64,000 nt of DNA. Origin: Escherichia coli. GTDB lineage: Bacteria; Pseudomonadota; Gammaproteobacteria; Enterobacterales; Enterobacteriaceae. The stretch lies in assembly GCF_003018235.1 (NCBI RefSeq), contig NZ_CP027437.1; one strand, written 5' to 3'. Shown piece after piece: positions 60,001 to 64,000 of the stretch. The position numbers are program-made. Every line of letters starts with the position of its first letter. Positions within the stretch are counted from its first letter, which is position 1.

Positions 60001-63000
60001 TTAACAAAGGTTTTACCAAGAGAGTTGCGATTTTTTAATGTTGTTCTTGTACTTGTTGTCTTTTCGTTTTCGCTTCCTCATTTTTTTATTGCTCCAGCTG
60101 CTGATTATCGTTATCTGCATTTTTCAGTTGTTTGTGCAGTGGTTCAATTAGGAATGTTTTTGGGCTTTTTCTTTATGAGATTGTATAAAAGAGTGTATTT
60201 TGGGGCGATTAAATTGTTGGGTTAAGGGTGTTCTTCTGTTATCACATATTTTATCTATATATTTATAGGTTTATTAGATTGGGTAATTAAGTGTTGTCTG
60301 TATCTTGGTGCTCTTGTTGAATATGTTTTTTAGCCCAGCTCTAATTGTCTGTGCTTTTTTGCCTAAATTATTATTGATTTTTACTTTTTCCTTAATATTA
60401 ACTTAATAAATGAGGTCATATAGTAATGAAGTAAATCTGAATTGTGCCGTCGGTCATTGACATTTCATCAACTCAGACGTTACAACTTTTAATACATGTC
60501 ATGATGATGCAAACATGATGAGCAAAAGTTAACCCTGAGAAAATTAAATGAAAATCACTATTTCTGGTACCGGATATGTTGGCCTGTCAAATGGTATTCT
60601 GATTGCTCAGAGCCACGAAGTGGTGGCACTGGATATCATCCAGACGAAAATCGAGATGCTGAATCAGAAACAATCCCCGATTGTGGATAAAGAGATCGAA
60701 GAGTATTTGGCGACTAGGTCGCTAAACTTCCGTGCAACGACTGATAAGTGTGATGCCTACCGAGATGCGGACTACGTTATTATCGCGACACCAACTGATT
60801 ATGATCCAAAGACTAATTACTTTAATACCTCAAGTGTCGAGTCTGTTATTCGCGACGTGGTTGCAATTAATCCAGATGCAGTAATGGTAATTAAGTCTAC
60901 CATCCCAGTAGGTTTTACTAATTCTATCAAAGAAAAACTGGGCACCGAAAATATTTTCTTTTCCCCAGAATTCCTGCGTGAGGGTAAAGCACTATATGAC
61001 AACCTTTACCCATCTCGTATTGTCATTGGTGAGCGTTCAGAGCGCGCCGAGCGTTTTGCAGCTCTGCTACAGGAAGGGGCACTAAAGAAAGATATTCCGA
61101 CCCTATTTACCGACTCGACCGAAGCCGAAGCTATTAAGCTGTTCGCTAATACCTATCTGGCGCTGCGTATAGCCTACTTTAATGAGCTGGACAGCTACGC
61201 TGAAACTCTAGGCCTGAATTCACTACAGATAATTGAAGGGGTATGCTTGGATCCGCGAATAGGAAACCACTATAACAACCCGTCATTTGGCTACGGCGGT
61301 TACTGTCTGCCTAAGGATACCAAGCAGTTGCTGTCCAACTATGAATCGGTACCGAATAACTTAATCGGTGCGATCGTCGAAGCTAATCGCACTCGTAAAG
61401 ACTTTATTGCCGACTCTATTCTCGCGCGCAAGCCTAAGGTGGTGGGTGTTTATCGCCTGATTATGAAGTCGGGTTCGGATAACTTCCGCGCGTCCTCCAT
61501 TCAGGGGATCATGAAGCGTATTAAGGCCAAGGGTATCACGGTAATTATTTATGAACCGGTGATGCAGGAAGATGAGTTTTTTAACTCCCGTGTGGTACGT
61601 GACTTCGAAGCCTTTAAGCTGGAGGCAGACGTGATTATCTCCAACCGTATGGCAGAAGAGCTGGTGGATGTTGGAGATAAAGTCTATACCCGTGATCTGT
61701 TTGGTAATGATTAAACGTTAGTTTTTGTGTCGTTCTCGGCGGTGCTTCGCTTGGCCGGGCTATGTTAGAAAAAGCCCTCATCTTGGACTGCACCCCAAAA
61801 GTTGGACACCCAACTGATTAAGGTGCAGTTTTTTATGGCAAAGCCAAAATATTCTCTCGAAACCAGATTAGCTGTCGTTACTCATTATCTTGCCGGACAC
61901 GATGGCGCACGTCGTACCGCTGAACGTTTTGGTGTTGAAGAAACATCAGTGCGACGCAGGGTAAGAGCCTGGCAACTCCACGGTATTGATGGTATTACAT
62001 GGAAAAATGACCGCCATTCTCCTGAGTTTCGACTGACGGTTGTCCTGAAGTCTCTGAGTGAAGAACTTACCATGCGCGAAGCCGCCGCACGGTTTAATAT
62101 CTCCAATGAATCCGTTGTCCGGCACTGGGTGAAGGTTTACAAAGACACTAGTGAAGCAGGACTTCTGAACATAAAACCAGGCCGGAGCAAGGACATGACA
62201 AAACCTCTAAAAACACCTCCACTTACGATGAAGAATTGGAAAAGTTATCTCCCGAAGAACTGCGGGCGGAACTCCGTTACCTTCGCGCAGAGAATGCCTA
62301 TCTAAAAAAGCTGAAGGCCTTAGTTCAAAGCGAGAAAAACGGCAGAAAGCCCGGATAATCAGTGAGCTAAGGCTGAAGCATGCGCTCGGTGATCTTCTGC
62401 GTGCCGCGGGTATGTCCCGCAGTACGTGGTATCACAATATGAATGCCCTGAAGCGAGTGGACAGGCATGCCGGACTGAAAGACAAATCAGAGAGATTTAT
62501 CATTATCACAAAGGGCATTATGGCTACCGCAGAATCACGCTCTCACTGAGAAAATAGGGCGTGTTGGTAAACCATAAAACAGTGCAGCGGCTGATGGCAG
62601 AGCTGTCGCTCCGCTCTGTGATAAGGGTGAAGAAATATCGTTCCTGGAAAGGGGAAGTAGGCAAAGCTGCACCCAATATCCTGATCCGGAACTTTGGTGC
62701 AACGAAGTCCAACGAAAAATGGGTGACGGATGTTACAGAGTTCTCGGTACAGGGTAAAAAGCTGTACCTGTCGACAGTTCTCGATCTGTTTAACCGGGAG
62801 ATTATCTCCTACAGCCTGTCAGAAAGGCTGGTGATGGAGATGATTAATACGATGCTGCACGATGCATTCTCAGTGTTTGGACCGGAGGATGCACCGTTGC
62901 TGCACACGGTTCAGGGCTGGCAATATCGAATGGCAGGCTATCAGGCAACGTTAAAGGCCCATGGAATGACACAAAGTATGTCGCGCAAGGGAAACTGTCT

Positions 63001-64000
63001 GGATAACGCAGTGATGGAGAACTTCTTCGGCGCACTGAAATCGGAGTGTTTTTACCTGAACAGGTTTAGCGATCTGAATGAACTGAGGAAAGCGATAGAG
63101 GACTATATCCATTATTATAACAACGAGCGGATCAGCCTGAAATTAAAAGGCCTGAGTCCGGTAGAATACCGAACTCAGGCCCTGAAAGCCGCTTAACATG
63201 AACTGTCCAACTTTATGGGGGCAGTCCATCCATGAGGGCTTTTTTTGTGCACAGAAAATCCCCTGCTAGGCTGAGGGGGGGGCCGGAAAGCTTTCAGCTT
63301 TGAGCCAGTTATTAAAACCCTTTTGATTTGTTAAAACACCTTGCGGTCTGGCAACTGCAAGTGTCAAACAAGAAATCAAAAGGGGGGGCTAATGGGGAAC
63401 AAAGAGAGCTTAGCGCACACCCGATTGAACGATAAATCTCACATATTTTTTGCGCCAAAATACCGAAGACAGGTGGTAAGGTAATCCCCCCGAAAAAACC
63501 GGTGCGATGTCCGGGTTAGGAAAGAGGATTACTGATGTCTTTTGCATAAATTCTCAATCACCGTCGTCAGGTCTAGGTTCTGATCCTGCAACAGCACCAG
63601 CAGGTGATACATCAAGTCCGATGCCTCGTTGGTCAGTTCGAAGCGGTCATGTACTGTGGCGGCCAGTGCTGTTTCCACGCCTTCTTCGCCCACTTTCTGC
63701 GCAATGCGTTTGGTGCCGCTGGCATACAGTTTGGCGGTATAGGAGGTTTCCGGATCGGCAGATTTACGTTCGGCGAGCAGTTGTTCCAGTTGATACAGGA
63801 ACAGCCATTGGTGAGCGGTGTCGCCGAAGCAGCTGCTGGTGCCTTTGTGGCAGGTCGGGCCGATGGGATTCGCCAGCAACAGTAACGTGTCGTTGTCGCA
63901 GTCCGGCGTAATATTTACTACGTTGAGGAAATTGCCCGACGTTTCGCCTTTGGTCCACAGTCGCTGTTTAGTGCGCGAGAAGAAGGTGACTTTGCCGCTT

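What the first reader, a model, noticed from the sequence alone, without database searches (positions are those of the whole stretch)
61715..63528. wzzB (O-antigen chain-length regulator) is absent; IS debris occupies its position between ugd and hisI
Seen in sequence: the 1.8 kb between the ugd stop (61714) and the hisI stop (63529) holds only a 1445-bp IS3-family element and an IS200 stub. No ORF resembles a PCP-1 protein of about 325 aa with two TM helices. Established knowledge: in K-12 and most E. coli the order is gnd-ugd-wzzB-hisI. Wzz acts on Wzy-dependent polymers and is dispensable for Wzm/Wzt O antigens. Inference: wzzB was lost, possibly by IS-associated deletion, in a lineage whose O antigen no longer uses it. 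The ugd-hisI junction has been a repeated IS target.
Basis: partly seen in the sequence, partly recalled or inferred. Interest (0 to 1): 0.55.

Follow-up and report, generated by a model that had tools for sequence, protein, structure and literature searches.

The report
IS scar where wzzB normally sits
In this E. coli O101/O162-type strain, the slot between ugd and hisI that normally holds the O-antigen chain-length gene wzzB contains only two dead insertion-sequence remnants, probably because the whole end of the locus was swapped for foreign DNA that never carried wzzB there; this is an ordinary scar of O-antigen locus exchange.

Summary
Between the ugd stop (61714) and the hisIE stop (63529) lie only four things:
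- a decayed 1445-bp IS3-family element (61784-63228);
- the two halves of the ugd terminator that this element split;
- a 229-bp left-end stub of IS200 (63247-63475);
- 53 bp of hisI 3' flank.

No WzzB-like sequence exists in the window. None exists anywhere in the five near-identical complete genomes either.

The proposed mechanism, IS-mediated deletion of wzzB, is probably wrong. The ugd allele is not the usual E. coli type (74-78% nt identity; closest species representative is Kluyvera). The last ~45-70 nt of hisI and its 3' flank are also foreign. That flank is the kind that abuts a convergent NAD-dependent epimerase (uge) in Kluyvera and in E. coli KSC64. So wzzB most likely went when the segment was replaced by recombination, with the right crossover inside hisI. 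The later deletion that truncated IS200 most likely removed uge, not wzzB.

The broader point holds. About 319 complete E. coli genomes carry O89/O101/O162-type wzm/wzt, and essentially none also has wzzB, against 88% of all genomes. This is ordinary biology, a new instance of a known kind.

The parts
60548..61714 (+). ugd (UDP-glucose 6-dehydrogenase), a non-E. coli-type allele
   Evidence: ORF and RefSeq name. It is 74-78% nt identical to ordinary E. coli ugd and 95.5% to the KSC64-type allele. The best species representatives are Kluyvera cryocrescens and K. intermedia, at 91% aa and 80-81% nt.
61715..61783 (+). ugd 3' UTR with the left arm of the ugd intrinsic terminator (GCCCTCAT, 61774-61781) and the left copy of the putative 3-bp target duplication (TCT, 61781-61783)
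   Evidence: It is 95.5% identical to the KSC64 ugd 3' UTR. The reconstructed empty site folds as AAAAAGCCCTCAT-CT-ATGAGGGCTTTTTTT.
61784..63228 (+). Dead IS3-family insertion sequence (ISKpn1-like), 1445 bp, inserted in the loop of the ugd terminator hairpin
   Evidence: It has 25-bp terminal inverted repeats. It is 96.5% identical to an intact 1447-bp copy on a Citrobacter braakii plasmid and 79.5% to ISKpn1. The inactivating lesions are 1-nt deletions after 62225 and at 62483 and a CAG>TAG change at 62555-62557. The rve/HTH domains come from precomputed Pfam hits on identical copies.
63229..63246 (+). Right copy of the putative target duplication (TCC), right arm of the ugd terminator (ATGAGGGC) and its T-run
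   Evidence: Read directly from the sequence.
63247..63475 (+). IS200 left-end stub: left-end region, complete 5' UTR (STnc490 sRNA, 63257-63382) and tnpA codons 1-28 (63392-63475). The remaining ~470 bp of the element is missing.
   Evidence: It is 92% identical to IS200C. The Rfam RF01405 match scores 111.9 bits over model positions 1-124 of 124. RefSeq annotates it as 'IS200/IS605 family transposase, incomplete' in NCTC10973.
63476..63528 (-). Foreign-type hisI 3' flank: the hisI terminator (CCGGACATCGCACCGG + T-run on the minus strand) and a remnant of a uge-hisI intergenic region
   Evidence: Positions 63494-63560 are 91% identical to the KSC64 hisI flank, and positions from 63491 are 75% identical to Kluyvera intermedia. 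The TAAGGTAATC motif matches the region upstream of uge in Kluyvera and KSC64. It is unlike the wzzB-hisI bidirectional terminator of E. coli, Enterobacter and Lelliottia.
63529..63600 (-). 3' end of hisIE carrying foreign-type (KSC64-like) polymorphisms. The recombination crossover zone is about 63572-63600.
   Evidence: The first 10 informative sites (positions 2-43 from the stop) are all KSC64-type. 12 of the 14 scored informative sites in the first 67 nt are KSC64-type. After that, 104 sites are E. coli-type against 7 KSC64-type, Fisher p=2e-10.
63601..64000 (-). Remainder of hisIE in the window, E. coli-type
   Evidence: It is 92-97% identical to ordinary E. coli hisIE and 80-85% to KSC64 or Kluyvera.

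Best explanation
The interval is the scarred right end of a horizontally exchanged O-antigen locus. It is not the remains of an E. coli wzzB deletion.

Step 1 (shown by mosaicism; the direction of transfer is inferred). The variable segment runs from the 3' end of galF to about 45-70 nt inside the 3' end of hisIE. It carries the Wzm/Wzt-dependent O101/O162-type cluster, a divergent gnd, a seven-gene side-branch module and a Kluyvera-like ugd. It replaced the resident galF...ugd-wzzB-hisI' segment by homologous recombination. The right end of the incoming DNA had the layout ugd> <uge <hisI with no wzzB, so wzzB disappeared in the swap.

Step 2 (shown). An IS200 inserted directly after the T-run of the ugd terminator. 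This is the same kind of site that IS200C uses after the wzzB and gnd terminators in other E. coli.

Step 3 (the junction is shown; the deleted content is inferred). A deletion from tnpA codon 28 to a point about 50 bp from the hisI stop removed the rest of IS200. It most probably also removed the convergent epimerase gene uge.

Step 4 (shown). An ISKpn1-like IS3-family element inserted into the loop of the ugd terminator hairpin. It then decayed through two frameshifts and one nonsense codon.

The order of step 4 relative to steps 2-3 is unknown. Whether steps 2-4 happened in the donor or in E. coli is also unknown. The IS3 element is 100% identical in four of the five complete genomes and 99.9% in the fifth, so the decay predates the spread of the locus.

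Loss of wzzB is tolerated because chain length in this pathway is set by chain termination, not by Wzz. The cluster's methyltransferase (48990-50138) is proposed to act as a WbdD-like terminator and molecular ruler.
For: Foreign ugd:
- It is 74-78% nt identical to ordinary E. coli ugd and 95.5% to the KSC64 type.
- The nearest species representatives are Kluyvera, at 91% aa.

Foreign hisI end:
- 12 of the 14 scored informative sites in the first 67 nt are KSC64-type. After that, 104 are E. coli-type against 7, p=2e-10 (alignment).
- The hisI 3' flank is homologous to the uge-hisI intergenic region of KSC64 and of two Kluyvera species. It is unlike the wzzB-adjacent flank.

Donor-like layouts:
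- K. intermedia has ugd> terminator <uge <hisI with no wzz.
- KSC64 and PSS-15 have the uge 3' end 80 nt after ugd, then IS100/IS66/IS110 debris, then a uge-promoter remnant, then hisI. They also lack wzzB between ugd and hisI.

Insertion sites:
- IS200C lies immediately after terminator T-runs in BS15R-A (gnd terminator) and SCU-301 (wzzB terminator).
- The IS3 element sits in a hairpin loop. Its intact relative on the C. braakii plasmid does the same, with a clean 3-bp TAA duplication.
- ISKpn1 and IS1397 are known to target palindromic hairpins (PMC1525189).

Distribution:
- All 24 contigs read and all 5 complete genomes with this Ugd share the junction.
- Their his operons diverge at different points.

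wzzB absence:
- No wzzB-like DNA is found anywhere in the 5 genomes.
- About 319 genomes have this wzm/wzt family and essentially none also has wzzB.

Chain-length control:
- The methyltransferase domain is confirmed.
- The WbdD-like ruler model for O101/O162 is proposed in PMC13168486.

Precedent:
- Klebsiella-to-E. coli transfer of the O8/O9 loci, which sit between gnd and hisI (PMC7685785).
Against: - No genome was found that carries the unscarred precursor, meaning this ugd allele followed by an intact uge and then hisI. The deleted content is therefore inferred from relatives at 95.5% (KSC64) and 81% (Kluyvera) nt identity.
- Kluyvera cryocrescens has a degenerate wzz-like gene between ugd and uge. 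A wzz in the incoming segment therefore cannot be excluded.
- Homology of the 18 bp at 63476-63493 to the region upstream of uge rests on a 10-mer with one mismatch.
- The putative IS3 target duplication is imperfect (TCT/TCC).
- No actual donor species was identified. The exact-pattern genome scan was empty. The single metagenome hit was the same E. coli arrangement.
Confidence: 0.7

Rival explanations
1. First reader's model. An E. coli-type ugd-wzzB-hisI arrangement lost wzzB in situ through a deletion promoted by the IS elements, after the O antigen had become Wzm/Wzt-dependent.
For: - IS remnants sit exactly where wzzB normally is.
- IS200C does insert between wzzB and hisI in many E. coli, in the same orientation as the stub.
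- IS5 or IS1 insertions in or next to wzzB occur in other genomes (H15, H191).
Against: - Neither flank is E. coli-type. ugd and its 3' UTR are foreign.
- The hisI terminator, its flank and the last ~45-70 nt of hisI are foreign.
- The left end of IS200 abuts the foreign ugd terminator, not the wzzB terminator.
- No wzzB fragment and no wzzB-hisI intergenic sequence survive.
Confidence: 0.08
2. The incoming foreign segment did carry a wzz gene between ugd and uge, as in Kluyvera cryocrescens. The deletion that truncated IS200 removed wzz together with uge.
For: - K. cryocrescens has ugd, then a frameshifted wzz-like gene, then uge, then hisI.
- Enterobacter and Lelliottia have ugd> <uge wzzB> <hisI.
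- The size of the deleted DNA is unknown.
Against: - In the closest ugd relatives (KSC64 and PSS-15, 95.5%) the uge 3' end follows the ugd terminator directly.
- K. intermedia shares the terminator hairpin sequence and has no wzz.
- The hisI flank is the uge-adjacent type, not the wzzB-adjacent type.
Confidence: 0.15
3. The IS200 stub plus the 53 bp is an internally deleted IS200 that still has both ends. On this reading nothing outside IS200 was deleted at this junction.
For: There is a superficial resemblance between the 53 bp (GAAAAAACCGG...CCGGG hairpin) and the right-end hairpin of IS200C (GAAAAACCTCCGG...CCGGAGG).
Against: - The 53 bp is 91% identical to the hisI flank of KSC64, which has no IS200 there, and is homologous to the flank in Kluyvera.
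- blastn with 7-nt words finds no match between it and the IS200C right end.
Confidence: 0.03
4. wzzB is not lost but has moved elsewhere in the genome.
For: None was found. The window covers only 64 kb of the genome.
Against: - A chimeric query was used, joining a locus-specific gene to wzzB. It shows one matching place in four of the five complete genomes.
- The second place in the fifth genome belongs to the locus-specific gene, not to wzzB.
- Sensitivity reached a wzzB allele of 68% identity (H193).
Confidence: 0.02

Closest known systems
E. coli O8/O9/O9a O-antigen loci acquired from Klebsiella (Sugiyama et al. 1998 and others, as summarised in PMC7685785)
   Same: - ABC-transporter-dependent O antigen.
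- Locus exchanged between genera.
- The non-E. coli-type architecture reaches hisI.
- wzz is absent from the region; the absence of wzz in group 1 capsule isolates is noted in PMC2897883.
   Different: - Here the wzm/wzt cluster sits in the usual galF-gnd position, not between gnd and hisI.
- The nearest ugd relatives are Kluyvera, not Klebsiella.
- The right crossover lies only ~45-70 nt inside hisI.
- The ugd-hisI space is empty apart from IS remnants.
   Same: - Same wzm/wzt family (93% identical).
- IS elements directly after ugd.
- Remnants of other polysaccharide genes in front of the his operon.
- No wzzB.
   Different: - In O89m the O locus is IS26-flanked, truncated in gnd and relocated between ybdK and nfsB.
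- In O89m a Klebsiella-type capsule locus occupies the his-linked site.
- Here the locus is in its native place, with gnd, the side-branch module and ugd all intact.
IS1397 / ISKpn1 (IS3 family elements that insert into palindromic units; PMC1525189)
   Same: - Same length, 1445 bp.
- 79.5% nt identity to ISKpn1.
- Two-ORF IS3 organisation.
- Insertion in the loop of a hairpin with a ~3-bp duplication.
   Different: - The target here, and on the C. braakii plasmid, is an intrinsic-terminator hairpin rather than a recognised REP/PU repeat.
- A third copy (E. coli 2017.20.01CC) is not obviously in a hairpin.
- This copy is a pseudogene.
IS200 / IS200C and its 5' UTR sRNA (Rfam RF01405, STnc490)
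   Same: - Left end, full 5' UTR structure and start of tnpA.
- Insertion directly after a terminator T-run, as for IS200C copies after gnd and wzzB.
   Different: - Only 229 bp remain.
- It is 8% diverged from every IS200C copy found.
- It has no right end and no transposase, so it cannot move.
WbdD-type chain terminators of ABC-transporter O antigens (as discussed for O101/O162 in PMC13168486)
   Same: The cluster encodes a 382-aa protein with an N-terminal methyltransferase domain. This protein is proposed in the literature to cap chains and set their length, which makes Wzz unnecessary.
   Different: The ruler function for O101/O162 is only a proposal in the literature, and nothing here tests it.

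Membership tests
WzzB / PCP-1 chain-length regulator at the ugd-hisI site | An ORF of about 325 aa homologous to WzzB between ugd and hisI | tested here: not met
   The longest ORFs in 61715-63528 are the IS3 fragments of 167 and 211 aa. tblastn with WzzB against the whole window gives a best E-value of 0.14, outside the interval. blastn finds no remnant.
WzzB / PCP-1 chain-length regulator at the ugd-hisI site | A wzzB copy elsewhere in the genome | tested here: not met
   Tested on the five near-identical complete genomes, not on this strain itself. No wzzB-like DNA was found.
IS3 family insertion sequence | Terminal inverted repeats beginning 5'-TG and ending CA-3' | tested here: met
   IRL is TGGACTGCACCCCAAAAGTTGGACA and IRR is TGGACTGCCCCCATAAAGTTGGACA; 22 of 25 positions match.
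IS3 family insertion sequence | Two overlapping ORFs (HTH OrfA and DDE/rve OrfB) joined by a programmed -1 frameshift | tested here: inconclusive
   The organisation is recognisable, and the intact C. braakii relative is annotated as one IS3 family transposase. Precomputed Pfam hits are HTH_Tnp_1/HTH_28 on the first ORF and rve on the second. In this copy the reading frames are broken by two 1-nt deletions and a TAG codon.
IS3 family insertion sequence | Short (3-4 bp) target-site duplication | tested here: inconclusive
   The flanks are TCT and TCC, so 2 of 3 positions match. The intact relative has a perfect TAA/TAA duplication.
IS1397/ISKpn1 subgroup (hairpin-targeting IS3 elements) | Insertion into the loop of a palindromic unit | tested here: inconclusive
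   Two of the three copies examined sit in the loop of a strong hairpin (window and C. braakii plasmid). The third is not obviously in one. The hairpins are terminator-like and were not shown to be REP/PU repeats.
IS200/IS605 family (IS200) | Left-end and 5' UTR structure plus the start of the Y1 transposase gene | tested here: met
   92% identity to IS200C over 63236-63475. Full-length STnc490 match. The tnpA N-terminus is MGNKESLAHTRLNDKSHIFFAPKYRRQV.
IS200/IS605 family (IS200) | A complete element of about 700 bp with a right-end hairpin and full tnpA | tested here: not met
   Homology stops at 63475. The following 53 bp are hisI flank, not the IS200 right end.
ABC-transporter-dependent O-antigen locus, O89/O101/O162 family | wzm and wzt present and no wzx/wzy in the cluster | tested here: met
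   wzm is 45143-45922 and wzt is 45929-46681, identical to the genes RefSeq names 'O89/O101/O162 family' in NCTC10973. No flippase or polymerase is annotated between galF and ugd.
ABC-transporter-dependent O-antigen locus, O89/O101/O162 family | [quoted passage not shown] | tested here: met
   53859-54974 is an intact 371-aa FAD-dependent oxidoreductase gene, which gives the O162 genotype. However, the second gene carries a private nonsense codon in this window.
Recombinational replacement of the O-antigen region with a crossover in his | An abrupt switch from foreign-type to E. coli-type polymorphisms inside a flanking housekeeping gene | tested here: met
   The switch lies at about 63572-63600 in hisIE. 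The left boundary is at the 3' end of galF.

The most novel reading that the evidence does not exclude
wzzB may be counter-selected, not merely dispensable, in E. coli that make O89/O101/O162-type Wzm/Wzt O antigens. Among 5426 complete genomes, about 319 carry this wzm/wzt family and essentially none also carries wzzB, against 88% overall. The gene is missing in at least three structurally different configurations: this scar, the KSC64-type IS field and the relocated O89m locus. A weaker second reading is that the retained IS200 fragment persists because it still supplies the STnc490-like 5' UTR sRNA.
Probability: 0.1. Interest if true: 0.5.

Novelty: new member of a known kind. Interest (0 to 1): 0.2.

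Why it matters
It matters little for mechanism and somewhat for how such loci are interpreted.

- When wzzB is missing next to IS debris, one should not assume the IS elements deleted it. Here the flanks show that the whole right end of the locus, down to the last codons of hisI, is imported DNA with a different native layout (ugd, uge, hisI).
- For O-typing and vaccine work on O101/O162 strains, the locus is effectively a ~22-kb cassette from the 3' end of galF to the 3' end of hisI. It moves between backgrounds with its scar.
- No Wzz is available in these strains. Chain-length distributions such as the bimodal pattern reported in PMC13168486 must therefore be explained without it.
- The survey gives a usable number: about 12% of complete E. 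coli genomes have no wzzB-like DNA.

Tried and rejected
- Exact-pattern scan of one genome per species with the ugd 3' UTR (GGCCGGGCTAYGTTAGAAAAAGCCCTCAT): no hit. No donor was identified this way.
- Protein-based scan with Ugd: the nearest species are only 91% aa identical (Kluyvera). This gives layouts but not a donor.
- Metagenome scan with the IS200/hisI-flank junction: one contig, and it is the same E. coli arrangement.
- Search for the unscarred precursor in E. coli using the K. intermedia ugd-hisI interval. Many E. coli have a convergent uge next to ugd, but none of the hits listed extended into the Kluyvera-type uge-hisI spacer.
- Search for a closer IS200 variant in plasmids and in E. 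coli: nothing better than 92-93% over the full stub. Whether the stub is old or of foreign origin stays open.
- Intact copies of the IS3 element in E. coli: none. The 93% copies are also pseudogenes.
- The idea that the 53 bp is an IS200 right end was rejected (see rival explanations).
- PC-NDM34 was fetched as a supposed O101-type comparator. It turned out to be an ordinary wzx/wzy strain and was used only as an E. coli-type reference.
- The Sugiyama 1998 paper could not be read. It is cited only through PMC7685785.
- The promoter and terminator scan of the interval gave counts at the level expected by chance.
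Full report
**Context**

The window is E. coli. Positions 40401-64000 align without rearrangement to NCTC10973 at 99.9% identity. The gene order is:
- the colanic acid genes and galF (40532-41437);
- galE;
- a Wzm/Wzt O-antigen cluster, with wzm at 45143-45922 and wzt at 45929-46681 (RefSeq label 'O89/O101/O162 family');
- gnd (52312-53718);
- a seven-gene module (53859-60225);
- ugd (60548-61714);
- the interval in question;
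- hisIE on the minus strand, from 63529.

The literature describes six extra genes between gnd and ugd in O101 and O162. The first of them is IS-interrupted in O101 and intact in O162 (PMC7685785; figure 1 legend of PMC13168486). Here the first gene is intact, so the genotype is O162-like.

**Checking the observation**

The description holds base for base.
- The IS3-family element spans 61784-63228 (1445 bp) and has 25-bp inverted repeats.
- It is 96.5% identical to an intact 1447-bp copy on a Citrobacter braakii plasmid and 79.5% identical to ISKpn1.
- Compared with the intact copy it has two 1-nt deletions (after 62225 and at 62483) and a CAG>TAG change at 62555-62557, so it is dead.
- The IS200 stub (63247-63475) is 92% identical to IS200C. 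It contains a full-length match to Rfam STnc490, the IS200 5' UTR RNA (63257-63382, 111.9 bits against a gathering score of 56). It ends after tnpA codon 28.
- WzzB finds nothing in six-frame translation of the entire window; the best E-value is 0.14.
- No nucleotide remnant of wzzB or of the E. coli wzzB-hisI spacer is present.

**Is wzzB elsewhere?**

The strain's own genome is not available, so I used the five complete genomes that share the junction at 99.8% identity or better.
- I built a chimeric query from a gene found only in these five genomes (58855-60225) joined to a wzzB allele.
- In four of the five genomes it matched a single place.
- The fifth genome had a second place. That place persisted when the locus-specific gene was searched alone, so it is not wzzB.
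- The same searches give population numbers. wzzB-like DNA is detectable in 4789 of 5426 complete genomes (4794 matching genomes minus the 5 that matched only the locus-specific gene). A 68%-identical allele was still detected.
- Adding wzm-wzt to the query raised the number of matching genomes to 5108, while the number of genomes with two places did not rise. So about 319 genomes carry this wzm/wzt family and essentially none of them also has wzzB.
- Most of these genomes are probably the O89m form. In O89m the O locus is relocated between ybdK and nfsB by IS26, and a Klebsiella-type capsule locus sits at the his-linked site (PMC6128206).

**What the flanks say**

- ugd is only 74-78% identical to ordinary E. 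coli ugd. It is 95.5% identical, including 67 nt of 3' UTR, to an allele in five other genomes (KSC64, PSS-15 and others).
- Among one genome per bacterial species, the closest Ugd proteins are from Kluyvera cryocrescens and K. intermedia (91% aa), followed by Scandinavium, Klebsiella michiganensis and Enterobacter.
- On the other side, the 53 bp next to hisI and the last codons of hisI are not E. coli-type either. Positions 63494-63560 are 91% identical to KSC64.
- I scored sites where three ordinary E. coli agree with one another and differ from KSC64. The first ten such sites (positions 2-43 from the stop) are all KSC64-type. 12 of the 14 scored sites in the first 67 nt are KSC64-type. After that, 104 sites are E. 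coli-type and 7 are KSC64-type (Fisher p = 2e-10; alignment).
- The crossover therefore lies at about 63572-63600, inside hisIE. The left boundary of the divergent segment is at the 3' end of galF.

**What used to lie between ugd and hisI**

- In K. intermedia the order is ugd, then a terminator hairpin (AAAAAGCCCTC...GAGGGCTTTTT, clearly related to the one in the window), then a convergent NAD-dependent epimerase gene (uge), then its upstream region, then the hisI terminator, then hisI. There is no wzz.
- In KSC64 and PSS-15 the 3' part of uge follows the ugd terminator directly. A field of IS100, IS66, IS110 and IS3 elements and a gmd fragment comes next. A remnant of the region upstream of uge then abuts the hisI terminator.
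- The window's 53 bp aligns with that same region. It shares the TAAGGTAATC motif and the terminator CCGG-N8-CCGG with both Kluyvera species and with KSC64.
- Species in which wzzB is the neighbour of hisI have an unrelated bidirectional terminator there. These are E. coli, Enterobacter, Lelliottia and Scandinavium.
- The simplest reading is that the incoming segment ended ugd> <uge <hisI. wzzB was lost in the replacement itself. The deletion that truncated IS200 removed uge.
- A convergent ugd-uge pair is common in E. coli; 446 genomes have a full-length homologue.
- In the Wzx/Wzy-dependent O100 strain NCTC9100, the pair is followed by IS600/IS30 debris and then an intact wzzB.

**The two IS events**

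- IS200. Its left end starts immediately after the T-run of the ugd terminator. IS200C copies start the same way immediately after the gnd terminator in BS15R-A and after the wzzB terminator in SCU-301. Dozens of genomes have a complete IS200C between wzzB and hisI.
- IS3. Removing the IS3 element and one copy of the flanking trinucleotide restores a perfect terminator, AAAAAGCCCTCAT-CT-ATGAGGGCTTTTTTT. So the element inserted in the hairpin loop.
- Its intact relative on the C. braakii plasmid also sits in a hairpin loop, with a clean TAA duplication. This matches the known preference of IS1397 and ISKpn1 for palindromic units (PMC1525189).
- A third copy is not obviously in a hairpin.

**History of the scar**

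- All 24 contigs read that encode exactly this Ugd carry the same ugd-to-hisI spacing. Eight were fetched, and each matches the window at 99.86-99.99% across the scar.
- The IS3 element is 100% identical in four of the five complete genomes and 99.9% in the fifth.
- Downstream, the carriers diverge from one another at different points in hisB and hisC-hisD. They also differ in carriage of yefM-yoeB.
- The scar is therefore older than the spread of this locus and travels with it between backgrounds.
- I could not determine whether the IS events happened in E. coli or in the donor. Some facts hint at the donor: there are no intact copies of this IS3 element in E. coli, and the stub is 8% diverged from every IS200C found. 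Old age would explain both facts equally well.

**Why loss is tolerated**

- Wzz regulates Wzy-dependent polymerisation. In the ABC-transporter pathway, chains are terminated by modification of the non-reducing end (PMC7685785).
- The cluster encodes a 382-aa protein with an N-terminal methyltransferase domain. This protein is proposed for O101/O162 to act like the WbdD molecular ruler (PMC13168486).
- Absence of wzz in E. coli isolates with group 1 capsules is already noted in the literature (PMC2897883).
- From memory only: group 1 capsules are associated with O8, O9, O20 and O101.

**Verdict**

- The functional inference is supported and is strengthened by the population survey.
- The proposed route of loss is probably wrong.
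- This is an ordinary, well-understood kind of event: O-antigen locus replacement with IS scarring. The papers I could read (PMC7685785, PMC13168486, PMC6128206) do not describe this ugd-hisI scar.

Noticed in passing
window 55077 (gene 54996-56006, + strand): A C>T change creates TAG at codon 28 (Q28*) of the second gene of the gnd-ugd side-branch module. The change is private to this window: NCTC10973 and eight other carriers all have CAG. The strain may therefore have an O162 genotype but lack the 4-deoxy-arabino-hexose branch.
   Followed up: partly
window 53859-60225: The seven-gene module between gnd and ugd encodes, in order: an FAD oxidoreductase (DAO); a 336-aa protein with no Pfam hit; a weak RmlD-like reductase; a xylose-isomerase-like TIM barrel; a 118-aa SMR/EamA-like membrane protein; a GT2; and a 452-aa polytopic membrane protein with no Pfam hit. 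It looks like a lipid-carrier-based, post-export glycosylation system. The literature lists six genes here and leaves the pathway open (PMC7685785).
   Followed up: partly
window 63257-63382: The IS200 stub retains a complete, high-scoring copy of the STnc490 RNA, the Hfq-binding sRNA derived from the IS200 5' UTR, although the transposase gene is gone. I did not test whether it is expressed.
   Followed up: no
window 61774-61783 / 63229-63246; L097 285-300 / 1748-1762: The ISKpn1-like element sits in the loop of an intrinsic-terminator hairpin both here and on a Citrobacter braakii plasmid. This suggests the element targets terminator-like hairpins in general rather than only REP/PU repeats. 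A third copy (L096) does not fit.
   Followed up: partly
L002 2990-3010; L015 2440-2455; window 63240-63250: IS200/IS200C left ends lie immediately after the T-run of three different terminators (gnd, wzzB and foreign ugd). Dozens of E. coli genomes have IS200C between wzzB and hisI.
   Followed up: partly
L013 (E. coli CRE389) 9694-27063: Here the O89/O101/O162-type cluster lies between two IS26 copies next to ybdK and nfsB. wcaM is truncated, and gnd is cut by IS903B. This is the O89m arrangement described in PMC6128206.
   Followed up: yes
E. coli genome collection: About 637 of 5426 complete E. coli genomes (12%) have no wzzB-like DNA detectable by blastn. About half of these carry O89/O101/O162-type wzm/wzt.
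   Followed up: partly
NZ_AP027829.1 (E. coli 2017.17.03CC): This genome has a second match to the 452-aa membrane-protein gene of the side-branch module elsewhere on the chromosome. I did not locate it.
   Followed up: no
L023 and L027: The record titled 'Enterobacter hormaechei B17-3' has a hisIE 98.5% aa and 95.8% nt identical to this E. coli allele. The record titled 'Vagococcus sp. WN89Y' carries an Enterobacteriaceae-type gnd-ugd-wzzB-hisI contig. These probably reflect recombination or mislabelling in the first case and contamination in the second.
   Followed up: no
L003 / L004 (E. coli KSC64, PSS-15) 15248-22179: The related foreign-type ugd is followed by a 7-kb field of IS100, IS66, IS110 and IS3 elements, together with fragments of uge and gmd. 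In these genomes the foreign tract extends through hisI into hisF. The right-hand crossover is therefore different from the one in the window.
   Followed up: partly
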